DNA from: a virus | IMG/VR virus record: IMGVR_UViG_3300046092_000062 | Location: 61,866-125,865 of that record | DNA: 64,000 nt | Strand: one strand, 5' to 3' | Shown: one piece after another, positions 889-13,359 of the stretch | Layout of the letters: each line of letters starts with the position of its first letter | Numbering within the stretch: position 1 is the first letter of the stretch | Position numbers and translations under genes: made by a program | Notes under the pieces: model-generated | Database searches by the model: none | What the model saw: only the letters and a program-made list of their open reading frames with translations | What the model was told of the DNA's origin: nothing

Positions 889-1229
889 TGCACAAAATCT
901 ACGTTGATGTTCCGTACGAGTACAACTATGTGTACCGAGTTGATCATGATGAGTCCACTGGTCCAGAAGTGCTAGCAAGGGACTTTGGGGTAAAGTTTGC
1001 GTTTATTTGCAACGCTGCTCAGAGATTCAGCAACCCCGAAGGACTTGGAGCAGTGGGCAATACAGGTGATGCTCACGTGGTATGGCTTGAGTCGGAGAAA
1101 GACGAATTGTTCTTTCTAATCAAGTCCGGATTTACCAAGTTAAATAAAGATGTAGTTGAACTATTCTTGAAAGCAAGATTGGAAGCTATGCGATTAAAAG
1201 AGAGGAATGATTATGAAACGTGTAATTGA
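888..1229 (+). CDS. hypothetical protein
   Basis: ORF track entry. Its ATG overlaps the upstream stop (TAATG). Confidence 0.5.
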   Translation: MHKIYVDVPYEYNYVYRVDHDESTGPEVLARDFGVKFAFICNAAQRFSNPEGLGAVGNTGDAHVVWLESEKDELFFLIKSGFTKLNKDVVELFLKARLEAMRLKERNDYETCN

Positions 1230-1884
1230 GGTCCGTGCCGCAGAAGGTGGCGAAGACAGTAAACTATTTGTAAAAGACTTGGCACAAGCCTACATTAAAT
1301 TTGCACACAGCAAAGGCTGAACTAGCCGCCTGATAAATGAGTATCTTGGCGAAGTTCATATCTTAGTCGAGGGTGCTGATTTATCTGGCTTATACAACGA
1401 GCCAGGTGGACACCGAATACAGCGTGTACCACCAACAGAGCGAAAAGGACGAGTACATACCAGTACTGTTACTGTCGCTGTTGTTGATCCAAGTGTGCCG
1501 ACCACTACCATAAAAGAATCTGATTTGCGGATTGAATGGTACAGCGGAACAGGCGCAGGAGGACAACACCGTAACAAGCACCAAAACAGTGCCCGCGTTA
1601 CGCACATACCTAGTGGCACAGTAGTAACAGCACAGTGTCGCAGTAGGGAAAATAGTTTGGCAGAAGCTATGCAAACTATTCGAGAAAGAGTTGACAAGAT
1701 AACAAAAGACTGTTATAATAACAACTTAGCAAGCAACAGAAAGCAACAAGTTGGTTCAGGGATGCGAGGAGACAAAATTCGCACATACCGCTTTCAGGAC
1801 GATACAGTTAAAGATCACGTAAGTGACAAGACTGCAAGCGTTAAGAAAGTGTTAGCCGGCAACTTTGACTTACTTTGGAATTAA
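1213..1884 (+). CDS. class-I release-factor-like protein (domains 2-4 only; PxT = PPT and GGQ motifs) with an in-frame TGA at 1318..1320
   Basis: An ATG at 1213 has a GAGGAA ribosome-binding site. The reading frame is continuous through to 1884 except for one TGA. The residues after the TGA (GGHRIQRVPPTERKGRVHTS...SGTGAGGQHRNK) align to RF1 domain 3. The TGA sits where RF1 has a conserved Trp (compare ...AEARRWRVEI). Confidence 0.55.
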
Positions 1885-1984
1885 AAAGGAAAATTGACAT
1901 GAAACGTTCAGGTAAACGATAGTGTCATCCTAGACCCCCGTATGGTCCTGGATGGCACGTAAAAGAAAAATATTTACGATCCAT

Positions 1985-2059
1985 CCACAGCAAACTTTGC
2001 TGGCGAAGTACCCGGCTCTTACCCGGACTAACAGAGTTCGATTCTCTGGCTGTGGACCA
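1985..2059 (+). tRNA. tRNA-Lys(CTT) (tentative anticodon)
   Basis: A 7-bp acceptor stem CCACAGC/GCTGTGG, the T arm CAGAG-TTCGATT-CTCTG, anticodon loop CTCTTAC, and an encoded CCA end. The anticodon stem has one mismatch. Confidence 0.5.
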
Positions 2060-2062
2060 TAT

Positions 2063-2137
2063 GGGGGTATAACTTAGCGGCTAAAGTATCTGGCTTTTAA
2101 CCAGAGAACCAGAGTTCGATTCTCTGTGCCCCTACCA
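2063..2137 (+). tRNA. tRNA-Lys(TTT)
   Basis: Acceptor stem GGGGGTA/TGCCCCT, D stem ACTT/AAGT, anticodon arm TCTGG-CTTTTAA-CCAGA, T arm CAGAG-TTCGATT-CTCTG, and an encoded CCA end. Confidence 0.75.
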
Positions 2138-2143
2138 TATCAA

Positions 2144-2256
2144 AGTACGCTAGTGCATTATAGTGAATCAGGTCGCTCCTGTGGAAGCTAAAACTGCATC
2201 AATTGCCCTGGAGGGAAAGGTCGACGGCTGCGGTTCGATTCCGTAGCGTACTTTGA
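2144..2256 (+). ncRNA. tRNA-like, 113-nt element bracketed by a perfect 18-bp inverted repeat; carries a canonical T arm but is too long for a tRNA
   Basis: CCATATCAAAGTACGCTA at 2138-2155 is the exact reverse complement of TAGCGTACTTTGATATGG at 2245-2262. The interior contains TGCGG-TTCGATT-CCGTA. No standard D arm or anticodon arm could be folded. Confidence 0.3.
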
Positions 2257-2269
2257 TATGGTAAGGCAT

Positions 2270-2347
2270 GGAAGTATAGCTCAGTTGGTTTAGAGCATCG
2301 GACTTTTAATCCGAGGGTCCTGGGTTCGAGCCCCAGTGCTTCTACCA
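2270..2347 (+). tRNA. tRNA-Lys(TTT)
   Basis: Acceptor stem GGAAGTA/TGCTTCT (with G-U pairs), D arm GCTCAGTTGGTTTAGAGC, anticodon arm TCGGA-CTTTTAA-TCCGA, T arm CTGGG-TTCGAGC-CCCAG, and an encoded CCA end. Confidence 0.75.
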
Positions 2348-2416
2348 TATGCAAACACATTTTTCTGAACGCCAGTCATTTGCCGTGCAGAGTAGGTCAA
2401 GTGTGTTTACATATGG
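2346..2416 (+). ncRNA. hairpin-bracketed small RNA element (not tRNA-like inside)
   Basis: ATATGCAAACACAT ... GTGTGTTTACATAT form an imperfect 14-bp inverted repeat around about 40 nt. The same bracket reappears at 13012-13112. Confidence 0.3.
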
Positions 2417-2548
2417 TACTAGAAGGAGTAATTAACCTTCGCCATAATCGGGAGTCATGACCCGATGAACTCGTAGTCTTCTAATTGGTTAGGAAAGGCC
2501 CGTTATGGGGCTTAATGTTGGTTCGAGCCCAACCTACAATGAGTTCGC

Positions 2549-2637
2549 ATATATAAACATACTAGTCGGCGACTAAGCGTATTGCACGGTCTCTACGGAG
2601 TGAAAGGGTCAGTGGTTCGATTCCACATAGTGTGTTT
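2549..2637 (+). ncRNA. possible long-variable-arm tRNA (type II) or degenerate tRNA; isotype unresolved
   Basis: The acceptor stem CATACTA/TAGTGTG pairs fully and the T arm is AGTGG-TTCGATT-CCACA. The D arm and anticodon arm could not be folded convincingly. Confidence 0.3.
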
Positions 2638-2992
2638 TTATATGGTGCAAAAGTAATAAAGGGACTTGGGTGCCCAGAGTTTTGAAAACTCACACACTAT
2701 AGTCGGCATGTGTGTCCACCGTGCATTAACCGACGTTTAAATAAAGCTAGGGCAAGCGCCAGTTAACGGTGGAGCCTATATAGAAGTATTCTTGGCATAA
2801 GTCAAAGCGGGAGAAGAAGCCTAGTATCTGCAGATGCGAAAGTTTCAGAGCTTGACTCCTCCTATGCTTGCATTTGAGAGTGCTTCTATATGGTATAGTG
2901 TAATGCGAATGCACGGGATCGCCACATAAGCCTTTGACGAGCGGTGGAACAAGGTTCAGGTGTGGTAGGAACCCACAATGCCATTTAAATTT

Positions 2993-3068
2993 GCCTTTAT
3001 AGCTCAGTTGGTAGAGCAGAGGATTGAAAATCCTTGTGTCACTGGTTCGAATCCGGTTAGAGGCACCA
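2993..3068 (+). tRNA. tRNA-Phe(GAA)
   Basis: The sequence is close to E. coli tRNA-Phe. It has acceptor stem GCCTTTA/TAGAGGC, D arm GCTCAGTTGGTAGAGC, anticodon arm GAGGA-TTGAAAA-TCCTT, T arm CTGGTTCGAATCCGG, and an encoded CCA end. Confidence 0.85.
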
Positions 3069-3083
3069 AATTATAGGAGTAGT

Positions 3084-4307
3084 ATGGCAAAGTTTTCGGA
3101 GAAGTTCTTCTGTCCTGCACCGTGGACAATGTTATACTATCATGCCAACTCTCCTAGTCCGTGCCACATGATTAAAAATTTAGAGATGGAAGCGACCCCA
3201 TCTGAATATTTTAATAGCGAATGGCTTAAGAATATAAAACAAGAAATGCAGCAAGGGATTGTTCCTGCTGCATGTTCTGGTTGTAAAGAGCGTGAGAGTC
3301 ATGGACTAAAAAGCACACGCGGCGCTATTTGGAATTACTATAATGTAGGACCTGAGCCCGAGTACGAAGATCAATGGTTCGCAAACAAGTTTACCGCAGA
3401 CAGCCCAACCGTTCCAAAAAGAATTGAGCTTAGGTTTAGTAATCTATGTAATATGAAATGCAGGATGTGCGACGAAACATCTAGTTCCAGCTTTGCAGCA
3501 GAAAAAATTGAACATAAGATTAAACCAGACAAAAACGGAAGTCATCTTGAGCATAGCGTGATACCCATCACAAAGATAGAAAACAATTCAATTGATGGCC
3601 TCATGGATACTGCCTTTCTAGCGTCAGTTCGAAAGGTATGTTTAACCGGTGGCGAACCATTTTTAATAAAAGAATATTACAGCTATCTAGATTACTTAAT
3701 AGACAACGGTTTTAACAAAACACTAGACGTAGAATTGTTTACAAATTGCAGTGTATATAATCCATTGTTTATTGATCGACTTAGTAAATTTAAAACAGTT
3801 CAAATGGTGATGAGCATCGATGCTGTGGGCAAAGCGGCTGAATATATTCGTAGTGGAACCGATTGGCCTAAAGTGGAAGCCAATGTGCTTCGACTAAATC
3901 AACTAGCAGCTCCATTTAAAATGGAAGTTACAACTGCCATATCTGCATACAGCCTAATGGACTTTGCAGAGACTGCACGATTTCTAATGAGGTTGTACAC
4001 CGAAAACAACACCATTGGCGTAAAATGTTACAACGTAACTTCGCCTCCGGGTATGCACTTTAATAATCTGCCTAAGCCGTTGAGAATACAAGCAATAGAT
4101 CAAATCGACAAGGCAGTAGAGATTCTAACAGCACCAAACTATTTGGTACTAGTTACAGAGTTGTTAAACGTGAAACACGCATTGACTACTTCGTCCCCGG
4201 ATACACCACTGGCATTCTTTGACTATACTAAGAAGTACGACACCATTAGGGGAGAGTCGTTTGCGGAAGTGTTTTTAACATCTCCTGACAGCACAGATTA
4301 CTTGTAA
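3084..4307 (+). CDS. radical SAM enzyme (CNMKCRMC = CX3CX2C) with an N-terminal Cys-rich domain; paralog of 49128..50156
   Basis: ORF 3024..4307 trimmed to the ATG at 3084, which follows an AGGAG ribosome-binding site and lies after tRNA-Phe. The radical-SAM cysteine triad is present. Confidence 0.7.
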   Translation: MAKFSEKFFCPAPWTMLYYHANSPSPCHMIKNLEMEATPSEYFNSEWLKNIKQEMQQGIVPAACSGCKERESHGLKSTRGAIWNYYNVGPEPEYEDQWFANKFTADSPTVPKRIELRFSNLCNMKCRMCDETSSSSFAAEKIEHKIKPDKNGSHLEHSVIPITKIENNSIDGLMDTAFLASVRKVCLTGGEPFLIKEYYSYLDYLIDNGFNKTLDVELFTNCSVYNPLFIDRLSKFKTVQMVMSIDAVGKAAEYIRSGTDWPKVEANVLRLNQLAAPFKMEVTTAISAYSLMDFAETARFLMRLYTENNTIGVKCYNVTSPPGMHFNNLPKPLRIQAIDQIDKAVEILTAPNYLVLVTELLNVKHALTTSSPDTPLAFFDYTKKYDTIRGESFAEVFLTSPDSTDYL

Positions 4308-11976: not shown

Positions 11977-12602
11977 ATACGTATAAGAAGTTCTTATACA
12001 CATGCACATAAATGCGTAGGCCACGCAGATATGGTTGGATTCATAGCTTGGGCTATTGCCCAGGTTGGCAGGTTCGAAACCTGTGAGTGTGCAGTTGTAT
12101 AAGAATTTAGGGCAGTTTAATGTCCTGCAAAGAGTATGGTTCGCCCAGCTTGATGCGAAGAATAACTGTGGTGACACAGCCAAAGGAGGTATGCCTACAT
12201 AACTCCGCTAGCAATAGTTCATTTAGACAAGCCTGCTCACTCCTGTGAGGGAGCGTTCACTCAGCGACGGGTGGATGTAACAGTGACGCAAAGTGCATAG
12301 GGAAGAACGTTTGCTTACAAGCCTGAGATTGCATCAAGGGGAACTTGAGTAGATGGAAAGTAACAGGTGGTGCTGACTTCTATGCGAAACCAACTTTGTT
12401 AATTGGTATGAGAAAGGGTAGTGTATTGGTTCGAAGGGTTGCACCTAAGAGCTCGTATGCAGTTTTAGTGGTTGGTGGACGTAGTAATACGAACATTGGT
12501 CGCAAAAGACGACTGAGTAGCTCGCAAGGCAAAAGGTACGTGGTGTGTTGTATTGTGTATTCCAAAAGATTATGCAGCAACTGAGTCAGCACATCGCAGT
12601 AG

Positions 12603-12674
12603 GTTGATATAGTTCATTGGTAGAACATCTGTCTCTTAAACAGAATGCGGTGGGTTCAATTCCCACTATCATTA
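12603..12674 (+). tRNA. tRNA-Lys(CTT) (CCA end not encoded)
   Basis: D arm GTTC-ATTGGTA-GAAC, anticodon arm TCTGT-CTCTTAA-ACAGA, T arm GTGGG-TTCAATT-CCCAC. The acceptor stem GTTGATA/TATCATT has one U-U mismatch. Confidence 0.55.
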
Positions 12675-13359
12675 CAAAACGCAAAGACTGACTCGGTCGT
12701 ATGTGAAAAGCATCTAATACTTGAGCCGCAAGGTAATCAAGTCAGACGTAACTCGCAAGGTGAAATCTGTTTATGCAGGAAGTTTCGTAGCTACTTAGCG
12801 GTGGTGAATGGCTCTAAAGGTCAACGGGATAGAAAGCGTAGAATAGCATACGGCGACAAGACTACTGCCTGTCTTTAAAAACGGCGATGCTGACAGCAGA
12901 CTAGACTACTATGCAAATAGGGTTTAGTGGAAGTCGGAAGAAAGTAGACTCGCAAGGTTTACAATAATGTCCGAGGTGTTGTTAGGTTAGGATGTATTCT
13001 CAGTCCGCCAACTTATATGCAAACACATTAGTAAAAGTCTGTAAAAGGACGAAGCAACTGACTCTGTAATAGGAGCTGTTTGCTCAGTGTGTTTACATAT
13101 AAGTATGCTTTGATGGTTAAAGTTGGATAGGTAGTGGGTAGCTTGTGAAATCATAGTAGCAAGTCCACAGCAACCCAAACGGTAGAAGCAGCTTATTTGA
13201 AAGCACATTTGTTCCTGAAAGATTTTACGGTTTGGATGGTTCAGCAAATGTGTTTCCAAATAAGAATTTGGTGATTGTGTGGAGCTAAGGCGATTCGCTG
13301 GACTATGAAGCACGACGAGAGCGTTGAACTTGAAATAGGTTCAACCACCAGACTAATAT

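What the first reader, a model, noticed from the sequence alone, without database searches (positions are those of the whole stretch)
2144..2256. A 113-nt tRNA-like element enclosed by a perfect 18-bp inverted repeat
CCATATCAAAGTACGCTA at 2138-2155 and TAGCGTACTTTGATATGG at 2245-2262 are exact reverse complements. The interior carries a canonical T arm (TGCGG-TTCGATT-CCGTA), but there is 35 to 40 nt too much sequence for any tRNA and no foldable D arm or anticodon arm. A second element of the same kind lies at about 2781-2891: its acceptor-like ends AGAAGTA...TGCTTCT copy the neighbouring tRNA-Lys, and it is about 108 nt long. These look like tRNA-derived structured small RNAs that are co-processed with the tRNAs, as with the T4 species 1 and 2 stable RNAs. 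Alternatively they may be tRNAs interrupted by a small insertion.
Basis: seen in the sequence. Interest (0 to 1): 0.6.

Follow-up and report, generated by a model that had tools for sequence, protein, structure and literature searches.

The report
Conserved stalk hairpin after phage tRNA
The flagged inverted repeat is real and is one diverged copy of a previously undescribed, phage-only family of roughly 20-base-pair hairpins that start at the CCA end of a tRNA (mostly tRNA-Lys) and carry a variable insert, which in this copy is a tRNA-like body with no anticodon.

Summary
The exact 18-bp inverted repeat exists, at 2135-2152 / 2244-2261. The canonical T arm is at 2229-2245.

The repeat is not a private feature of this element. 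It is a diverged copy of a conserved stalk, (U)A-CCAUAU-NN-AAACACAYU ... AGUGUGUUU-NN-AUAUGG-U. This stalk occurs in more than 240 IMG/VR phage contigs. It is absent from 185,579 reference prokaryote genomes except for 4 contigs from freshwater metagenome bins, and from GenBank phages.

The stalk starts at the CCA of an upstream tRNA in 73% of copies. tRNA-Lys(UUU) accounts for 59% of these, against a 4.4% background. The stalk often ends at G+1 of the next tRNA. Its interior (25-95 nt) is unrelated between copies. The window holds five clear copies and one related hairpin.

In this copy the interior is a four-way junction: a long arm, a short UGG-loop hairpin and a T arm stacked on the stalk. 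It has compensatory changes but no anticodon loop.

Best reading: a co-transcribed RNA spacer or processing stalk, probably cut by a double-strand-specific RNase, which releases a tRNA-like small RNA comparable to T4 species 1. The mechanism is inferred. Rfam has no matching family, and I found no paper describing it.

The parts
1894..1923 (+). Sigma-70-like promoter of the tRNA/ncRNA array (TTGACA, 18-nt spacer, GATAGT)
   Evidence: 10 of 12 matches. The block TGACATGAAACG...TAGTGTCA is conserved upstream of tRNA-Lys(CUU) in 26 distinct phage loci.
1931..1948 (+). Leader strand that pairs with 2054-2071, the junction 'ACCA-UAU-GGGGGUA' between tRNA-Lys(CUU) and tRNA-Lys(UUU)
   Evidence: I3. 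A 13-17 bp duplex is kept in all 26 relatives. Own leader/junction pairs average -26.5 kcal/mol against -23.3 for cross pairs, p = 1e-4. L068 and L151 carry matching insertions on both strands.
1985..2059 (+). tRNA-Lys(CUU), CCA encoded, followed by TAT
2063..2137 (+). tRNA-Lys(UUU); its CCA (2135-2137) forms the first three pairs of the stalk
2135..2152 (+). 5' arm of the stalk of element A (CCATATCAAAGTACGCTA)
   Evidence: It differs from the family consensus CCATAT-NN-AAACACATTA at four pairs. Three changed on both sides and one went from U.G to C-G.
2153..2199 (+). Long arm of the tRNA-like interior (12 bp + 4 bp, internal loop GAAU/UGGAA, loop UCGCU)
   Evidence: RNAalifold on 4 variants, columns 21-67. 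Three pairs changed on both sides.
2203..2217 (+). Short hairpin with a UGGA/UGGUU loop
   Evidence: columns 71-85. One pair changed on both sides (U-A to G-C).
2229..2245 (+). T arm TGCGG-TTCGATT-CCGTA, directly abutting the 3' arm
2244..2261 (+). 3' arm of the stalk of element A (TAGCGTACTTTGATATGG)
2270..2347 (+). Second tRNA-Lys(UUU), followed by hairpin B
2343..2418 (+). Family member B: canonical stalk, 38-nt interior that is not tRNA-like
   Evidence: I2; z = -4.95
2547..2645 (+). Family member D: canonical stalk, with T arm 2612-2628 abutting the 3' arm
2776..2893 (+).
   Evidence: I10; five pairs changed on both sides among 4 variants
13013..13102 (+). Family member H, 7 nt after the 3' end of the GOLLD RNA
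13192..13264 (+). Related 21-bp hairpin with a different outer sequence (CTTATTTGAAAGCACATTTG...), conserved in L001

Best explanation
Element A (2135-2261, + strand) is RNA. It is one copy of a phage-specific family of spacer hairpins transcribed as part of a tRNA/ncRNA operon.

Shown:
- The family has a sequence-conserved stalk of about 20 bp. The stalk begins at the CCA of the upstream tRNA and often ends at G+1 of the next tRNA.
- It has a fixed polarity.
- It encloses a 25-95-nt interior that differs from copy to copy.
- In A the interior is a tRNA-like four-way junction (long arm, UGG-loop hairpin, T arm stacked on the stalk) without an anticodon loop.

Inferred:
- The stalk is a processing stalk, comparable to the stalks that flank 16S and 23S rRNA.
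- A double-strand-specific endoribonuclease (RNase III class, or a phage enzyme that reads the conserved sequence) cuts near the middle of the helix. In canonical copies a conserved A.C mismatch sits there.
- This would leave the upstream tRNA with a short 3' trailer that exonucleases trim back to CCA.
- It would leave the downstream tRNA with a short leader that RNase P removes.
- The interior, with the inner half of the stalk, would be released as a stable small RNA of about 90-110 nt.
- For A, that product would be a tRNA mimic of the T4 species 1 type, able to engage enzymes that bind the T arm and acceptor helix but unable to decode.
For: Repeat and fold.

Family:
- The same stalk occurs in relatives whose radical-SAM ORF is only 51-55% identical.
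- More than 240 IMG/VR stretches match a pattern of 26 specified bases.
- Only 5 stretches (4 contigs) were found in 185,579 reference genomes, all from freshwater metagenome bins. None was found in GenBank phages.

Position:
- 216 of 297 copies start at the CCA of an ARAGORN tRNA.
- Among the 191 unique tRNA-abutting copies, the offset from the tRNA end is identical in all. The upstream tRNA is Lys(UUU) in 112, Gln(UUG) in 23 and Glu(UUC) in 18, against a background of about 4.4% each.
- 76% of tRNA-Lys(UUU) genes in these loci carry the hairpin.
- In 63 cases the next tRNA starts at the last G of the stalk.

Pairing and polarity:
- Position 5 is 98% Watson-Crick with three pair types. Position 16 has four pair types.
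- Position 6 is A.C or C.A in 64% of copies and never G.U. Position 14 is U.G in 71% and never C.A. So all tRNA-oriented copies have the same polarity.

RNA-level signal:
- Interiors fold better on the tRNA strand in 136 copies against 54, p = 5e-13.
- T-loop motifs occur only in sense orientation, 16 against 0.
- In 17 of 32 distinct T-arm elements the T arm abuts the 3' arm.
- A and E each have five pairs changed on both sides.

Operon context:
- A conserved promoter lies upstream.
- An independent, covarying long-range helix is built on the same CCA-UAU-GG junction.

Analogy: T4 rnaC has a T arm next to its 3' end and the same predicted topology.
Against: - There are no transcript or cleavage data. 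Every processing step is inference.
- No RNase III, Ro60 or RtcB gene is seen among the window's ORFs. The window is only about a fifth of a genome of roughly 350 kb.
- The stalk is conserved in sequence far more than known RNase III substrates require. That points to a sequence-reading partner not yet identified.
- Element A lacks the central A.C mismatch of canonical copies.
- Empty alleles exist between the same tRNAs (L071 and L135), so the hairpin is dispensable for tRNA expression.
- Interiors are unrelated between phages whose flanking tRNAs are nearly identical. That fits cargo that matters little.
- Only four A-type variants are known, so the covariation is thin and the sequences are related.
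Confidence: 0.45

Rival explanations
1. The hairpin is a selfish palindromic DNA element (like a MITE, a REP element or an rRNA intervening sequence). It spreads or is shuffled within phage tRNA arrays and is merely tolerated. The conserved arms are terminal repeats read by a recombinase or transposase. The interiors are junk or captured fragments, including tRNA pieces such as the T arm of A.
For: - It is multi-copy within each genome: five clear copies plus a related hairpin in the window, eight in L001.
- Presence and absence vary between the same tRNAs.
- A cassette-like indel separates the window from L003, with boundaries in the 5' arms.
- The same interior follows different tRNAs: L085 after Gln, L245 after Lys.
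- The short spacer CCA-TAT-GG is itself a palindrome and could be a target.
- Interiors are unconserved between phages.
Against: - Polarity is strict: none of the 191 tRNA-oriented copies is inverted, judged by the position 6 and position 14 asymmetry.
- There is no master copy. Interiors differ even within one genome.
- Empty sites are not precise excisions with a target duplication: ACCA-GTTTATG in the empty allele against ACCA-TAT...ATATG in the filled one.
- Interiors fold better on the sense strand, and T loops occur only in sense.
- The interiors of A and E show compensatory changes.
- No transposase or integrase domain appeared in the Pfam hits listed for the window's ORFs.
- Copies inspected that lack an upstream tRNA follow other structured RNAs rather than random sites.
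Confidence: 0.2
2. The stalk is the binding site of a phage protein and the variable interior is an effector module. This is the Y RNA design, in which a conserved stem binds Ro60 and, in bacterial YrlA, the variable domain mimics tRNA. The RNA would act as a scaffold or decoy, for example against defences that target tRNA, rather than as a processing signal.
For: - Size is 61-130 nt, with a conserved terminal stem carrying one fixed non-Watson-Crick pair and a variable interior.
- A subset has tRNA-like interiors.
- Y RNAs are 80-130 nt with a long stem that holds the Ro60 site, and YrlA RNAs carry a tRNA-like domain (PMC4201824).
- The sequence-level conservation of the stalk suggests a reader that is specific for sequence.
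- The association with tRNA-Lys(UUU), Gln(UUG) and Glu(UUC) recalls tRNAs attacked by anticodon nucleases (own knowledge; PARIS paper listed).
Against: - The YrlA Ro60 motif GNCGAAN0-1G is absent from the stalk.
- No TROVE/Ro60 protein is in the window.
- In YrlA the order is T, acceptor-like stem-loop, D, whereas here the T arm abuts the terminal helix as in tRNA.
- No Rfam family matches at E <= 10.
- Most interiors share nothing that could serve as a common effector module.
Confidence: 0.15
3. The helix is a cis-regulatory alternative structure. By pairing the CCA of one tRNA with the first bases of the next RNA, it delays or gates folding and maturation of tRNA-Lys(UUU), acting as a timer or attenuator within the operon.
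For: - CCA is paired with UGG in 94-100% of copies.
- The stalk often includes G+1 of the next tRNA.
- A second conserved helix sequesters the 5' acceptor strand of tRNA-Lys(UUU).
Against: - No ligand or sensor element is evident.
- The interior would be unnecessary for this role.
- Only one or two bases of the downstream tRNA are involved.
Confidence: 0.1
4. It is an unusual or interrupted tRNA gene.
For: It has a canonical T arm, a 7-bp stretch AGTACGC/GCGTACT followed by TA at the positions of tRNA nucleotides 8-9, and it lies in a tRNA array.
Against: - It is not called by ARAGORN or by Rfam RF00005, even at E <= 10.
- It has no 7-nt anticodon loop; the loops are UCGCU and UGGA.
- The terminal helix continues to 18-19 bp, and TTGA rather than NCCA follows the acceptor-like strand.
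- The same anticodon-less architecture is kept in all four variants.
Confidence: 0.03

Closest known systems
Phage T4 species 1 RNA (rnaC), and species 2 RNA (rnaD)
   Same: These are stable small RNAs encoded inside a phage tRNA cluster on the tRNA strand. rnaC (139 nt) has a canonical T arm (CCGGG-UUCGAAU-CCCGG) next to its 3' end. Its predicted fold is a four-way junction of closing stem, long arm, hairpin and T arm, like element A. Their function is unknown (own knowledge).
   Different: T4 rnaC has only a short, imperfect closing stem. It has no conserved 20-bp stalk and no link to the CCA of an upstream tRNA. Sequence similarity was not tested. rnaD has no T arm and its fold is not significant (z = -0.8).
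Bacterial Y RNAs (YrlA / Yrn1)
   Same: They are 80-130 nt, with a long terminal stem that is the conserved protein-binding part and a variable interior. In YrlA the interior mimics tRNA, with T and D arms (PMC4201824).
   Different: The Ro60 motif GNCGAAN0-1G is absent. No Ro60 gene is nearby. The arm order differs. No Rfam hit. The hairpins here are fused to the CCA end of a tRNA.
RNase III processing stalks of rRNA operons, and intervening sequences of 23S rRNA
   Same: A helix of about 20 bp or more, formed by the flanks of an RNA, marks it for excision from a polycistronic precursor. Intervening sequences are sporadic, have conserved stems and variable loops, and are dispensable (own knowledge).
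   Different: Here the stalk sits between tRNAs, starts exactly at the CCA, is strongly conserved in sequence, and is confined to phages. Cleavage has not been shown.
tRNA-linked hairpin transcripts of murine gammaherpesvirus 68 (TMERs)
   Same: A viral tRNA-like gene is followed directly by a hairpin that depends on tRNA 3'-end processing for its release (own knowledge). The weak hits to miRNA precursor models only reflect hairpin shape.
   Different: That is a eukaryotic virus using RNase Z and Dicer, with no conserved stalk sequence. This is an analogy only.
PeSL mobile regulatory cassettes of T4-type phages; integron attC sites; MITEs
   Same: These are repeated short motifs that bound modules and go with insertion, deletion and replacement of cassettes between related phages (PMC2839356). 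attC sites are imperfect palindromes of 57-141 nt with a variable centre (own knowledge).
   Different: PeSLs are a promoter plus a small stem-loop flanking ORFs. The attC cores RYYYAAC/GTTRRRY are not matched. MITEs insert in both orientations with uniform interiors, which is not seen here.

Membership tests
tRNA (Rfam RF00005 / ARAGORN) | Cloverleaf that scores above threshold with tRNA models | tested here: not met
   ARAGORN finds 16 tRNAs but nothing at 2138-2262. Rfam finds no tRNA match there at the gathering score or at E <= 10.
tRNA (Rfam RF00005 / ARAGORN) | T arm: 5-bp stem and a 7-nt loop of the TTCGAnn type | tested here: met
   TGCGG-TTCGATT-CCGTA at 2229-2245.
tRNA (Rfam RF00005 / ARAGORN) | Anticodon arm with a 7-nt loop; 7-bp acceptor stem followed by NCCA or a processable end | tested here: not met
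   The conserved loops are UCGCU and UGGA/UGGUU. The terminal helix is 18-19 bp and is followed by TTGATATGG.
Conserved-stalk hairpin family defined here | Stalk CCATAT-NN-AAACAYA ... TRTGTTT-NN-ATATGG (or a compensated variant) enclosing 25-95 nt | tested here: met
   B, D and H match the pattern exactly or with at most two mismatches per arm. A differs at four stalk pairs, all still paired, three of them changed on both sides. A-type arms recur in L002/L003, L200 and L283.
Conserved-stalk hairpin family defined here | Begins at the CCA of the upstream tRNA or ncRNA, on the same strand | tested here: met
   The CCA of tRNA-Lys(UUU) is 2135-2137, the first three bases of the 5' arm. In the family, 216 of 297 copies do the same.
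T4 species 1 RNA (rnaC) | Small RNA inside a phage tRNA cluster, with a T arm adjacent to the 3' end | tested here: met
   for T4. for A. This is a resemblance in design only.
T4 species 1 RNA (rnaC) | Sequence homology to T4 rnaC; stable transcript of defined size | not tested
   No direct alignment was made. No T4 record is among the 40 rows listed for the region search against GenBank phages. No transcript data are available.
Bacterial Y RNA / YrlA | Ro60-binding motif GNCGAAN0-1G in the 5' strand of the terminal stem | tested here: not met
   Motif taken from PMC4201824. The stalk reads CCAUAUCAAAGUACGCUA in A, and CCAUAUNNAAACACAUU in the consensus.
Bacterial Y RNA / YrlA | Encoded next to a Ro60 (TROVE) gene | tested here: not met
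   No TROVE domain appears in the Pfam hits listed for 60 window ORFs. One search listed 25 of 27 matching families. The rest of the genome was not seen.
RNase III processing stalk | Helix of about 20 bp or more, formed by the sequences flanking the excised RNA | tested here: met
   18 exact pairs, or 23 with one mismatch. The family stalk runs from position -3 to +17.
RNase III processing stalk | Cleavage by RNase III in vivo or in vitro | not testable with these tools
   Needs RNA end mapping or an enzyme assay.
MITE / transposon-derived palindromic element | Terminal inverted repeats with target-site duplication, insertion in both orientations, near-identical interiors among copies | tested here: not met
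   Inverted termini are present. But polarity is fixed, with none of 191 copies inverted. Interiors are unrelated. Empty sites show no clean duplication.
Integron attC site | Core sites R'' RYYYAAC and R' GTTRRRY; an integron integrase | tested here: not met
   The arms read ...ATAAAAAC-ACA and TGT-GTTTCTAT, so the YYY and RRR positions are not matched (read directly from the sequence). No integrase appears in the Pfam hits listed for the window.
tmRNA | tRNA-like domain plus a tag reading frame, detected by ARAGORN or Rfam | tested here: not met
   ARAGORN finds no tmRNA. The only hit is a 15-nt T-loop match to cyano_tmRNA in element D, at 10 bits.

The most novel reading that the evidence does not exclude
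The hairpins are a phage-specific modular RNA system. In this reading, the invariant 20-bp stalk, with its fixed A.C and U.G pairs, is a handle read by a dedicated phage factor. That factor excises, stabilises or presents interchangeable cargo RNAs, including anticodon-less tRNA mimics such as element A. The system is attached preferentially to tRNA-Lys(UUU), Gln(UUG) and Glu(UUC) because it serves the conflict over these tRNAs with host nucleases that target tRNA, acting as decoys, as protected precursor pools, or as regulators of their maturation.
Probability: 0.15. Interest if true: 0.85.

Novelty: new variant of a known kind. Interest (0 to 1): 0.62.

Why it matters
Phage tRNA arrays are usually annotated as tRNAs separated by meaningless spacers. 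Here a large part of the spacer is occupied by a conserved, polar, phage-only RNA module. It is found in hundreds of uncultivated phages, has no Rfam family, and is described in no paper I could find. It is tied to the 3' end of tRNA-Lys(UUU), a tRNA at the centre of phage-host conflicts.

If the stalk is a processing or recognition signal, it defines a new rule for how large phages mature and perhaps time their tRNAs. It would also uncover a population of small RNAs, some of them tRNA mimics, whose T4 counterparts have remained without function for fifty years.

The element also gives a testable handle. A 20-bp sequence can be used to fish for its protein partner. The same sequence can be used to find these arrays in metagenomes.

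Tried and rejected
- Rfam, at the gathering score and at E <= 10 over 1880-3100. Only tRNAs and meaningless hits to miRNA, snoRNA and plastid models.
- GenBank phages. Searching with the region found only tRNA matches. Searching with the stalk consensus found only chance hits.
- Exact search for the T arm plus 3' arm in IMG/VR found nothing. The window's own contig is not in that collection.
- Metagenome scan with AAAGTACGC-N(75-105)-GCGTACTTT. The pattern was too weak for that database. It returned 120 rows that were almost all chance matches, and no new A-type copy was among them.
- Y RNA / Ro60 idea. Rejected on the binding motif, gene context and arm order.
- Self-cleaving ribozyme (HDV-like, hatchet and similar, acting as a tRNA 3'-end processor). 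Rejected because nothing outside the helix is conserved and Rfam ribozyme models do not hit.
- Promoter inside the arms (TATAAAAA resembles a T4 late promoter). Rejected because the NN positions vary and covary, and the sigma-70 scan finds no site in the arms.
- The short ORF MKRSGKR at 1900-1923 as a leader peptide. Rejected in favour of a conserved promoter.
- attC and MITE readings. See the membership tests.
- Strand choice from G.U counts in the stalk is uninformative. Each strand would have one wobble pair and one A.C pair. Polarity was taken from the tRNA instead.
Full report
**Observation**

The window carries 16 tRNA genes and a GOLLD RNA, all on the + strand. It belongs to an uncultivated large phage. 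The nearest relatives are IMG/VR contigs of up to 354 kb, and no GenBank phage is close.

CCATATCAAAGTACGCTA is at 2135-2152 and its exact complement at 2244-2261. This is 3 and 1 nt from the coordinates given. The repeat extends to 23 nt with one mismatch. About 1e-4 such repeats are expected by chance in 64 kb. The T arm TGCGG-TTCGATT-CCGTA is at 2229-2245. The first three bases of the 5' arm are the encoded CCA of tRNA-Lys(UUU) 2063-2137.

**The repeat belongs to a family**

Between 2135 and 2893 the window holds four hairpins with related terminal arms: A (2135-2261), B (2343-2418), D (2547-2645) and E (2776-2893). A fifth (13013-13102) lies just after GOLLD, and a related one is at 13192-13264.

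The homologous arrays of relatives L001-L004 have the same kind of hairpins with other interiors. So do L005-L008, whose radical-SAM ORF is only 51-55% identical to the window's.

A two-arm pattern with 26 specified bases (CATAT-NN-AAACAYA, a gap, TRTGTTT-NN-ATATG) was scanned with two gap ranges. My estimate of the chance expectation is about 0.01. The same pattern found only 5 stretches, on 4 contigs, in 185,579 reference bacterial and archaeal genomes. All come from freshwater metagenome bins. It found nothing real in GenBank phages. The family is therefore abundant, phage-specific and so far confined to uncultivated phages. The loci are extremely rich in tRNA genes: 3,900 in 2.6 Mb.

**Anatomy of the family**

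- Of 297 copies, 216 start at the CCA of an ARAGORN tRNA.
- Among the 191 unique tRNA-abutting copies, the offset from the tRNA end is identical in all.
- In those 191, the upstream tRNA is Lys(UUU) in 112, Gln(UUG) in 23 and Glu(UUC) in 18. Each of these makes up about 4.4% of the tRNAs in the same loci.
- 76% of the tRNA-Lys(UUU) genes carry the hairpin.
- About half of the hairpins are followed within 10 nt by the next tRNA. In 63 cases that tRNA begins at the last G of the stalk. The hairpin then fills the spacer exactly. The CCA of one tRNA pairs with UGG, of which the last G or two belong to the next tRNA.
- Copies inspected that lack an upstream tRNA follow other structured RNAs ending in ACCA or GCA. 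One example is the tRNA-like element C.
- The stalk runs from position -3 to +17, counted from the second C of the CCA. Positions not fixed by my search pattern still pair: position 5 is 98% Watson-Crick with three pair types, position 15 is 98% U-A, and position 16 has four pair types.
- Two positions are special. Position 6 is A.C or C.A in 64% of copies and never G.U. Position 14 is U.G in 71% and never C.A. An inverted copy would show the opposite pattern, so all oriented copies share one polarity.
- Interiors are 25-95 nt long, with about 49% G+C. They are unrelated between phages whose flanking tRNAs are 90-100% identical. The same interior can follow different tRNAs.
- Empty alleles exist: L071 and L135 have ACCA-GTTTATG-tRNA-His. 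A cassette-like indel (B plus C) separates the window from L003.

**Evidence that the element works as RNA rather than DNA**

- Interiors fold more stably on the tRNA strand in 136 copies against 54 (p = 5e-13). They are modestly more stable than shuffled sequence, with mean z = -0.57.
- T-loop motifs occur only in sense orientation, 16 against 0.
- Of 32 distinct elements with a T arm, 17 have it directly abutting the 3' arm, as in the acceptor/T stack of a tRNA.
- A and E each show five pairs changed on both sides among four variants.
- The array has a sigma-70-like promoter at 1894-1923, conserved in 26 phages.
- The transcript's leader (1931-1948) forms a separate 13-17-bp helix with the junction ACCA-UAU-GGGGGU between tRNA-Lys(CUU) and tRNA-Lys(UUU). 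Own leader/junction pairs are more stable than cross pairs (p = 1e-4), and L068 and L151 have matching insertions on both strands. Extended helices built on CCA-UAU-GG junctions are therefore a recurrent, selected feature of these transcripts.

**Element A itself**

Its arms differ from the family consensus at four stalk pairs, and all four remain paired. Three changed on both sides (A-U to G-C, C-G to U-A, A-U to G-C) and one changed from U.G to C-G. The NN pairs are Watson-Crick, so A lacks the central mismatch.

Only four variants are known: the window, L002/L003, L200 and L283. The RNAalifold consensus is a four-way junction made of:
- a stalk of 19 bp;
- a long arm at 2153-2199;
- a short hairpin at 2203-2217 with a UGGA or UGGUU loop;
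- about 12 unpaired nucleotides, containing a self-complementary hexamer that stays self-complementary (GUCGAC in the window, GCCGGC in L200);
- the T arm.

There is no 7-nt anticodon loop, and tRNA models do not score it. This is a tRNA-like body on a family stalk, not a tRNA with an insertion.

**Element E**

E is conserved in L001-L004 at 84-99% identity. It has a structured interior but no T arm. Its arms equal the acceptor stem of the neighbouring tRNA-Lys only in this window's lineage and do not track that tRNA in L001.

**Mechanism**

Shown:
- The element is a polar, sequence-conserved helix of about 20 bp.
- It is fused to the CCA of the upstream RNA and often to the 5' end of the next.
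- It sits inside a transcription unit with a promoter.

Inferred: the stalk is cut by a double-strand-specific endoribonuclease.

A stable helix that begins at the CCA cannot be removed by 3' exonucleases (established knowledge of bacterial tRNA 3' maturation). tRNA-Lys therefore needs an endonucleolytic cut. A cut near the centre of a 21-bp helix, where the conserved A.C sits, would have three results:
- A trailer of 5-8 nt would be left on the upstream tRNA, which RNase T, PH or II can trim.
- A short leader would be left on the next tRNA for RNase P.
- The interior would be released with a 9-11-bp stem.

This is the logic of rRNA stalks and of 23S intervening sequences (own knowledge). The strong sequence conservation argues for an additional or alternative partner that reads sequence. 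I rate the identity claims (RNA element, family member, tRNA-like cargo) at about 0.85 and the RNase III-type mechanism at about 0.35. The overall figure is 0.45.

**Rival explanations**

- A selfish palindromic DNA element explains the cassette dynamics. It does not explain the fixed polarity, the lack of a master copy, the sense-strand signals, or the absence of clean target duplications.
- A Y-RNA-like scaffold fits the architecture but fails the defining motif, the gene context and the arm order.
- A folding gate is possible but leaves the interior unexplained.
- An interrupted tRNA is excluded.

**Comparison with known elements, and novelty**

The closest functional analogue of the interior is T4 species 1 RNA. 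It has a T arm next to its 3' end and the same predicted topology. I found no counterpart for the stalk family in Rfam 15. I found none in five literature searches either. These included a survey of about 10,000 candidate viral structured RNAs, which mentions tRNA-like candidates but no hairpin adjacent to tRNAs.

I therefore class it as a new variant of known kinds (spacer or processing hairpin; phage tRNA-like small RNA) rather than categorically new, because no function has been shown. Interest is moderate to high. The original observation alone is a curiosity, but it opens onto an abundant, unannotated phage RNA module linked to tRNA-Lys(UUU).

Noticed in passing
window 12540-13006 (+), with tRNA-Lys(CUU) at 12603-12675 inside it: A full-length GOLLD RNA (Rfam RF02032, 198.8 bits) with a tRNA embedded near its 5' end. 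This tRNA does not end in CCA in the ARAGORN call (ATCATTAC), whereas the other 15 tRNAs in the window all encode CCA. A family hairpin follows GOLLD 7 nt after its 3' end (13013-13102), and a related 21-bp hairpin is at 13192-13264.
   Followed up: partly
window 1213-1884 (+), in-frame TGA at 1318-1320: A release-factor homologue (PCRF and RF-1 domains, with GGQ). It is split by an in-frame TGA, and both halves match consecutive parts of the PCRF profile in the same frame. This could be programmed read-through, TGA recoding, or autoregulation. It lies directly upstream of the tRNA-Lys array.
   Followed up: partly
window 1894-1948 and 2054-2071 (+): A conserved promoter-like block and a leader whose 5' part pairs with the junction between tRNA-Lys(CUU) and tRNA-Lys(UUU). 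This would sequester the 5' acceptor strand of tRNA-Lys(UUU). It is conserved in 26 distinct phage loci, with compensating substitutions and insertions. A further hairpin at 1949-1987 overlaps the first bases of tRNA-Lys(CUU) (I8).
   Followed up: partly
window 2424-2546 (+): Element C is a separate, conserved tRNA-like RNA. It has a 10-bp acceptor-like stem with an AAU bulge, a D-like arm, a short third arm without a 7-nt loop, and a T arm. Two small hairpins precede it. 14 of 34 predicted pairs changed on both sides among 8 phages. ARAGORN and Rfam do not call it. It ends in GCA-TAT and is followed by hairpin D.
   Followed up: partly
window 2647-2777 and 2894-2992 (+): Two more non-coding blocks, F and G, lie between the hairpins. 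They are conserved at 74-97% in L001-L004, L229, L263 and L106. F ends in a stem CCACCG...CGGTGG followed by AGCC-TATAT. Their single-sequence folds are not significant. They were not analysed for covariation.
   Followed up: no
related loci, e.g. L049, L056, L095, L103 (upstream of their hairpins): Other recurrent non-tRNA elements in these arrays end in a small hairpin plus NCCA (for example GCCAGCAACACTGGC-T-ACCA) just before a family hairpin. This suggests a wider set of minihelix-like RNAs with tRNA-type 3' ends.
   Followed up: no
window 2220-2225 (GTCGAC) in element A: A self-complementary hexamer in the unpaired linker before the T arm stays self-complementary in L200 and L283 (GCCGGC), with coordinated changes. 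It is GTTGAC in L002/L003. It may be a dimerisation or kissing site, or part of a pairing not captured by the consensus fold.
   Followed up: no
L004 2650-3260: Relative L004 has about 600 bp inserted between block G and tRNA-Phe. The window lacks this stretch. I did not check whether it holds an open reading frame or what it encodes.
   Followed up: no
window 1985-2347 and 12603-12675: The window has four tRNA-Lys genes (two CUU, two UUU). The order tRNA-Lys(CUU), TAT, tRNA-Lys(UUU), hairpin recurs in many related phages. All 26 CCATATGG junctions found follow tRNA-Lys(CUU).
   Followed up: partly
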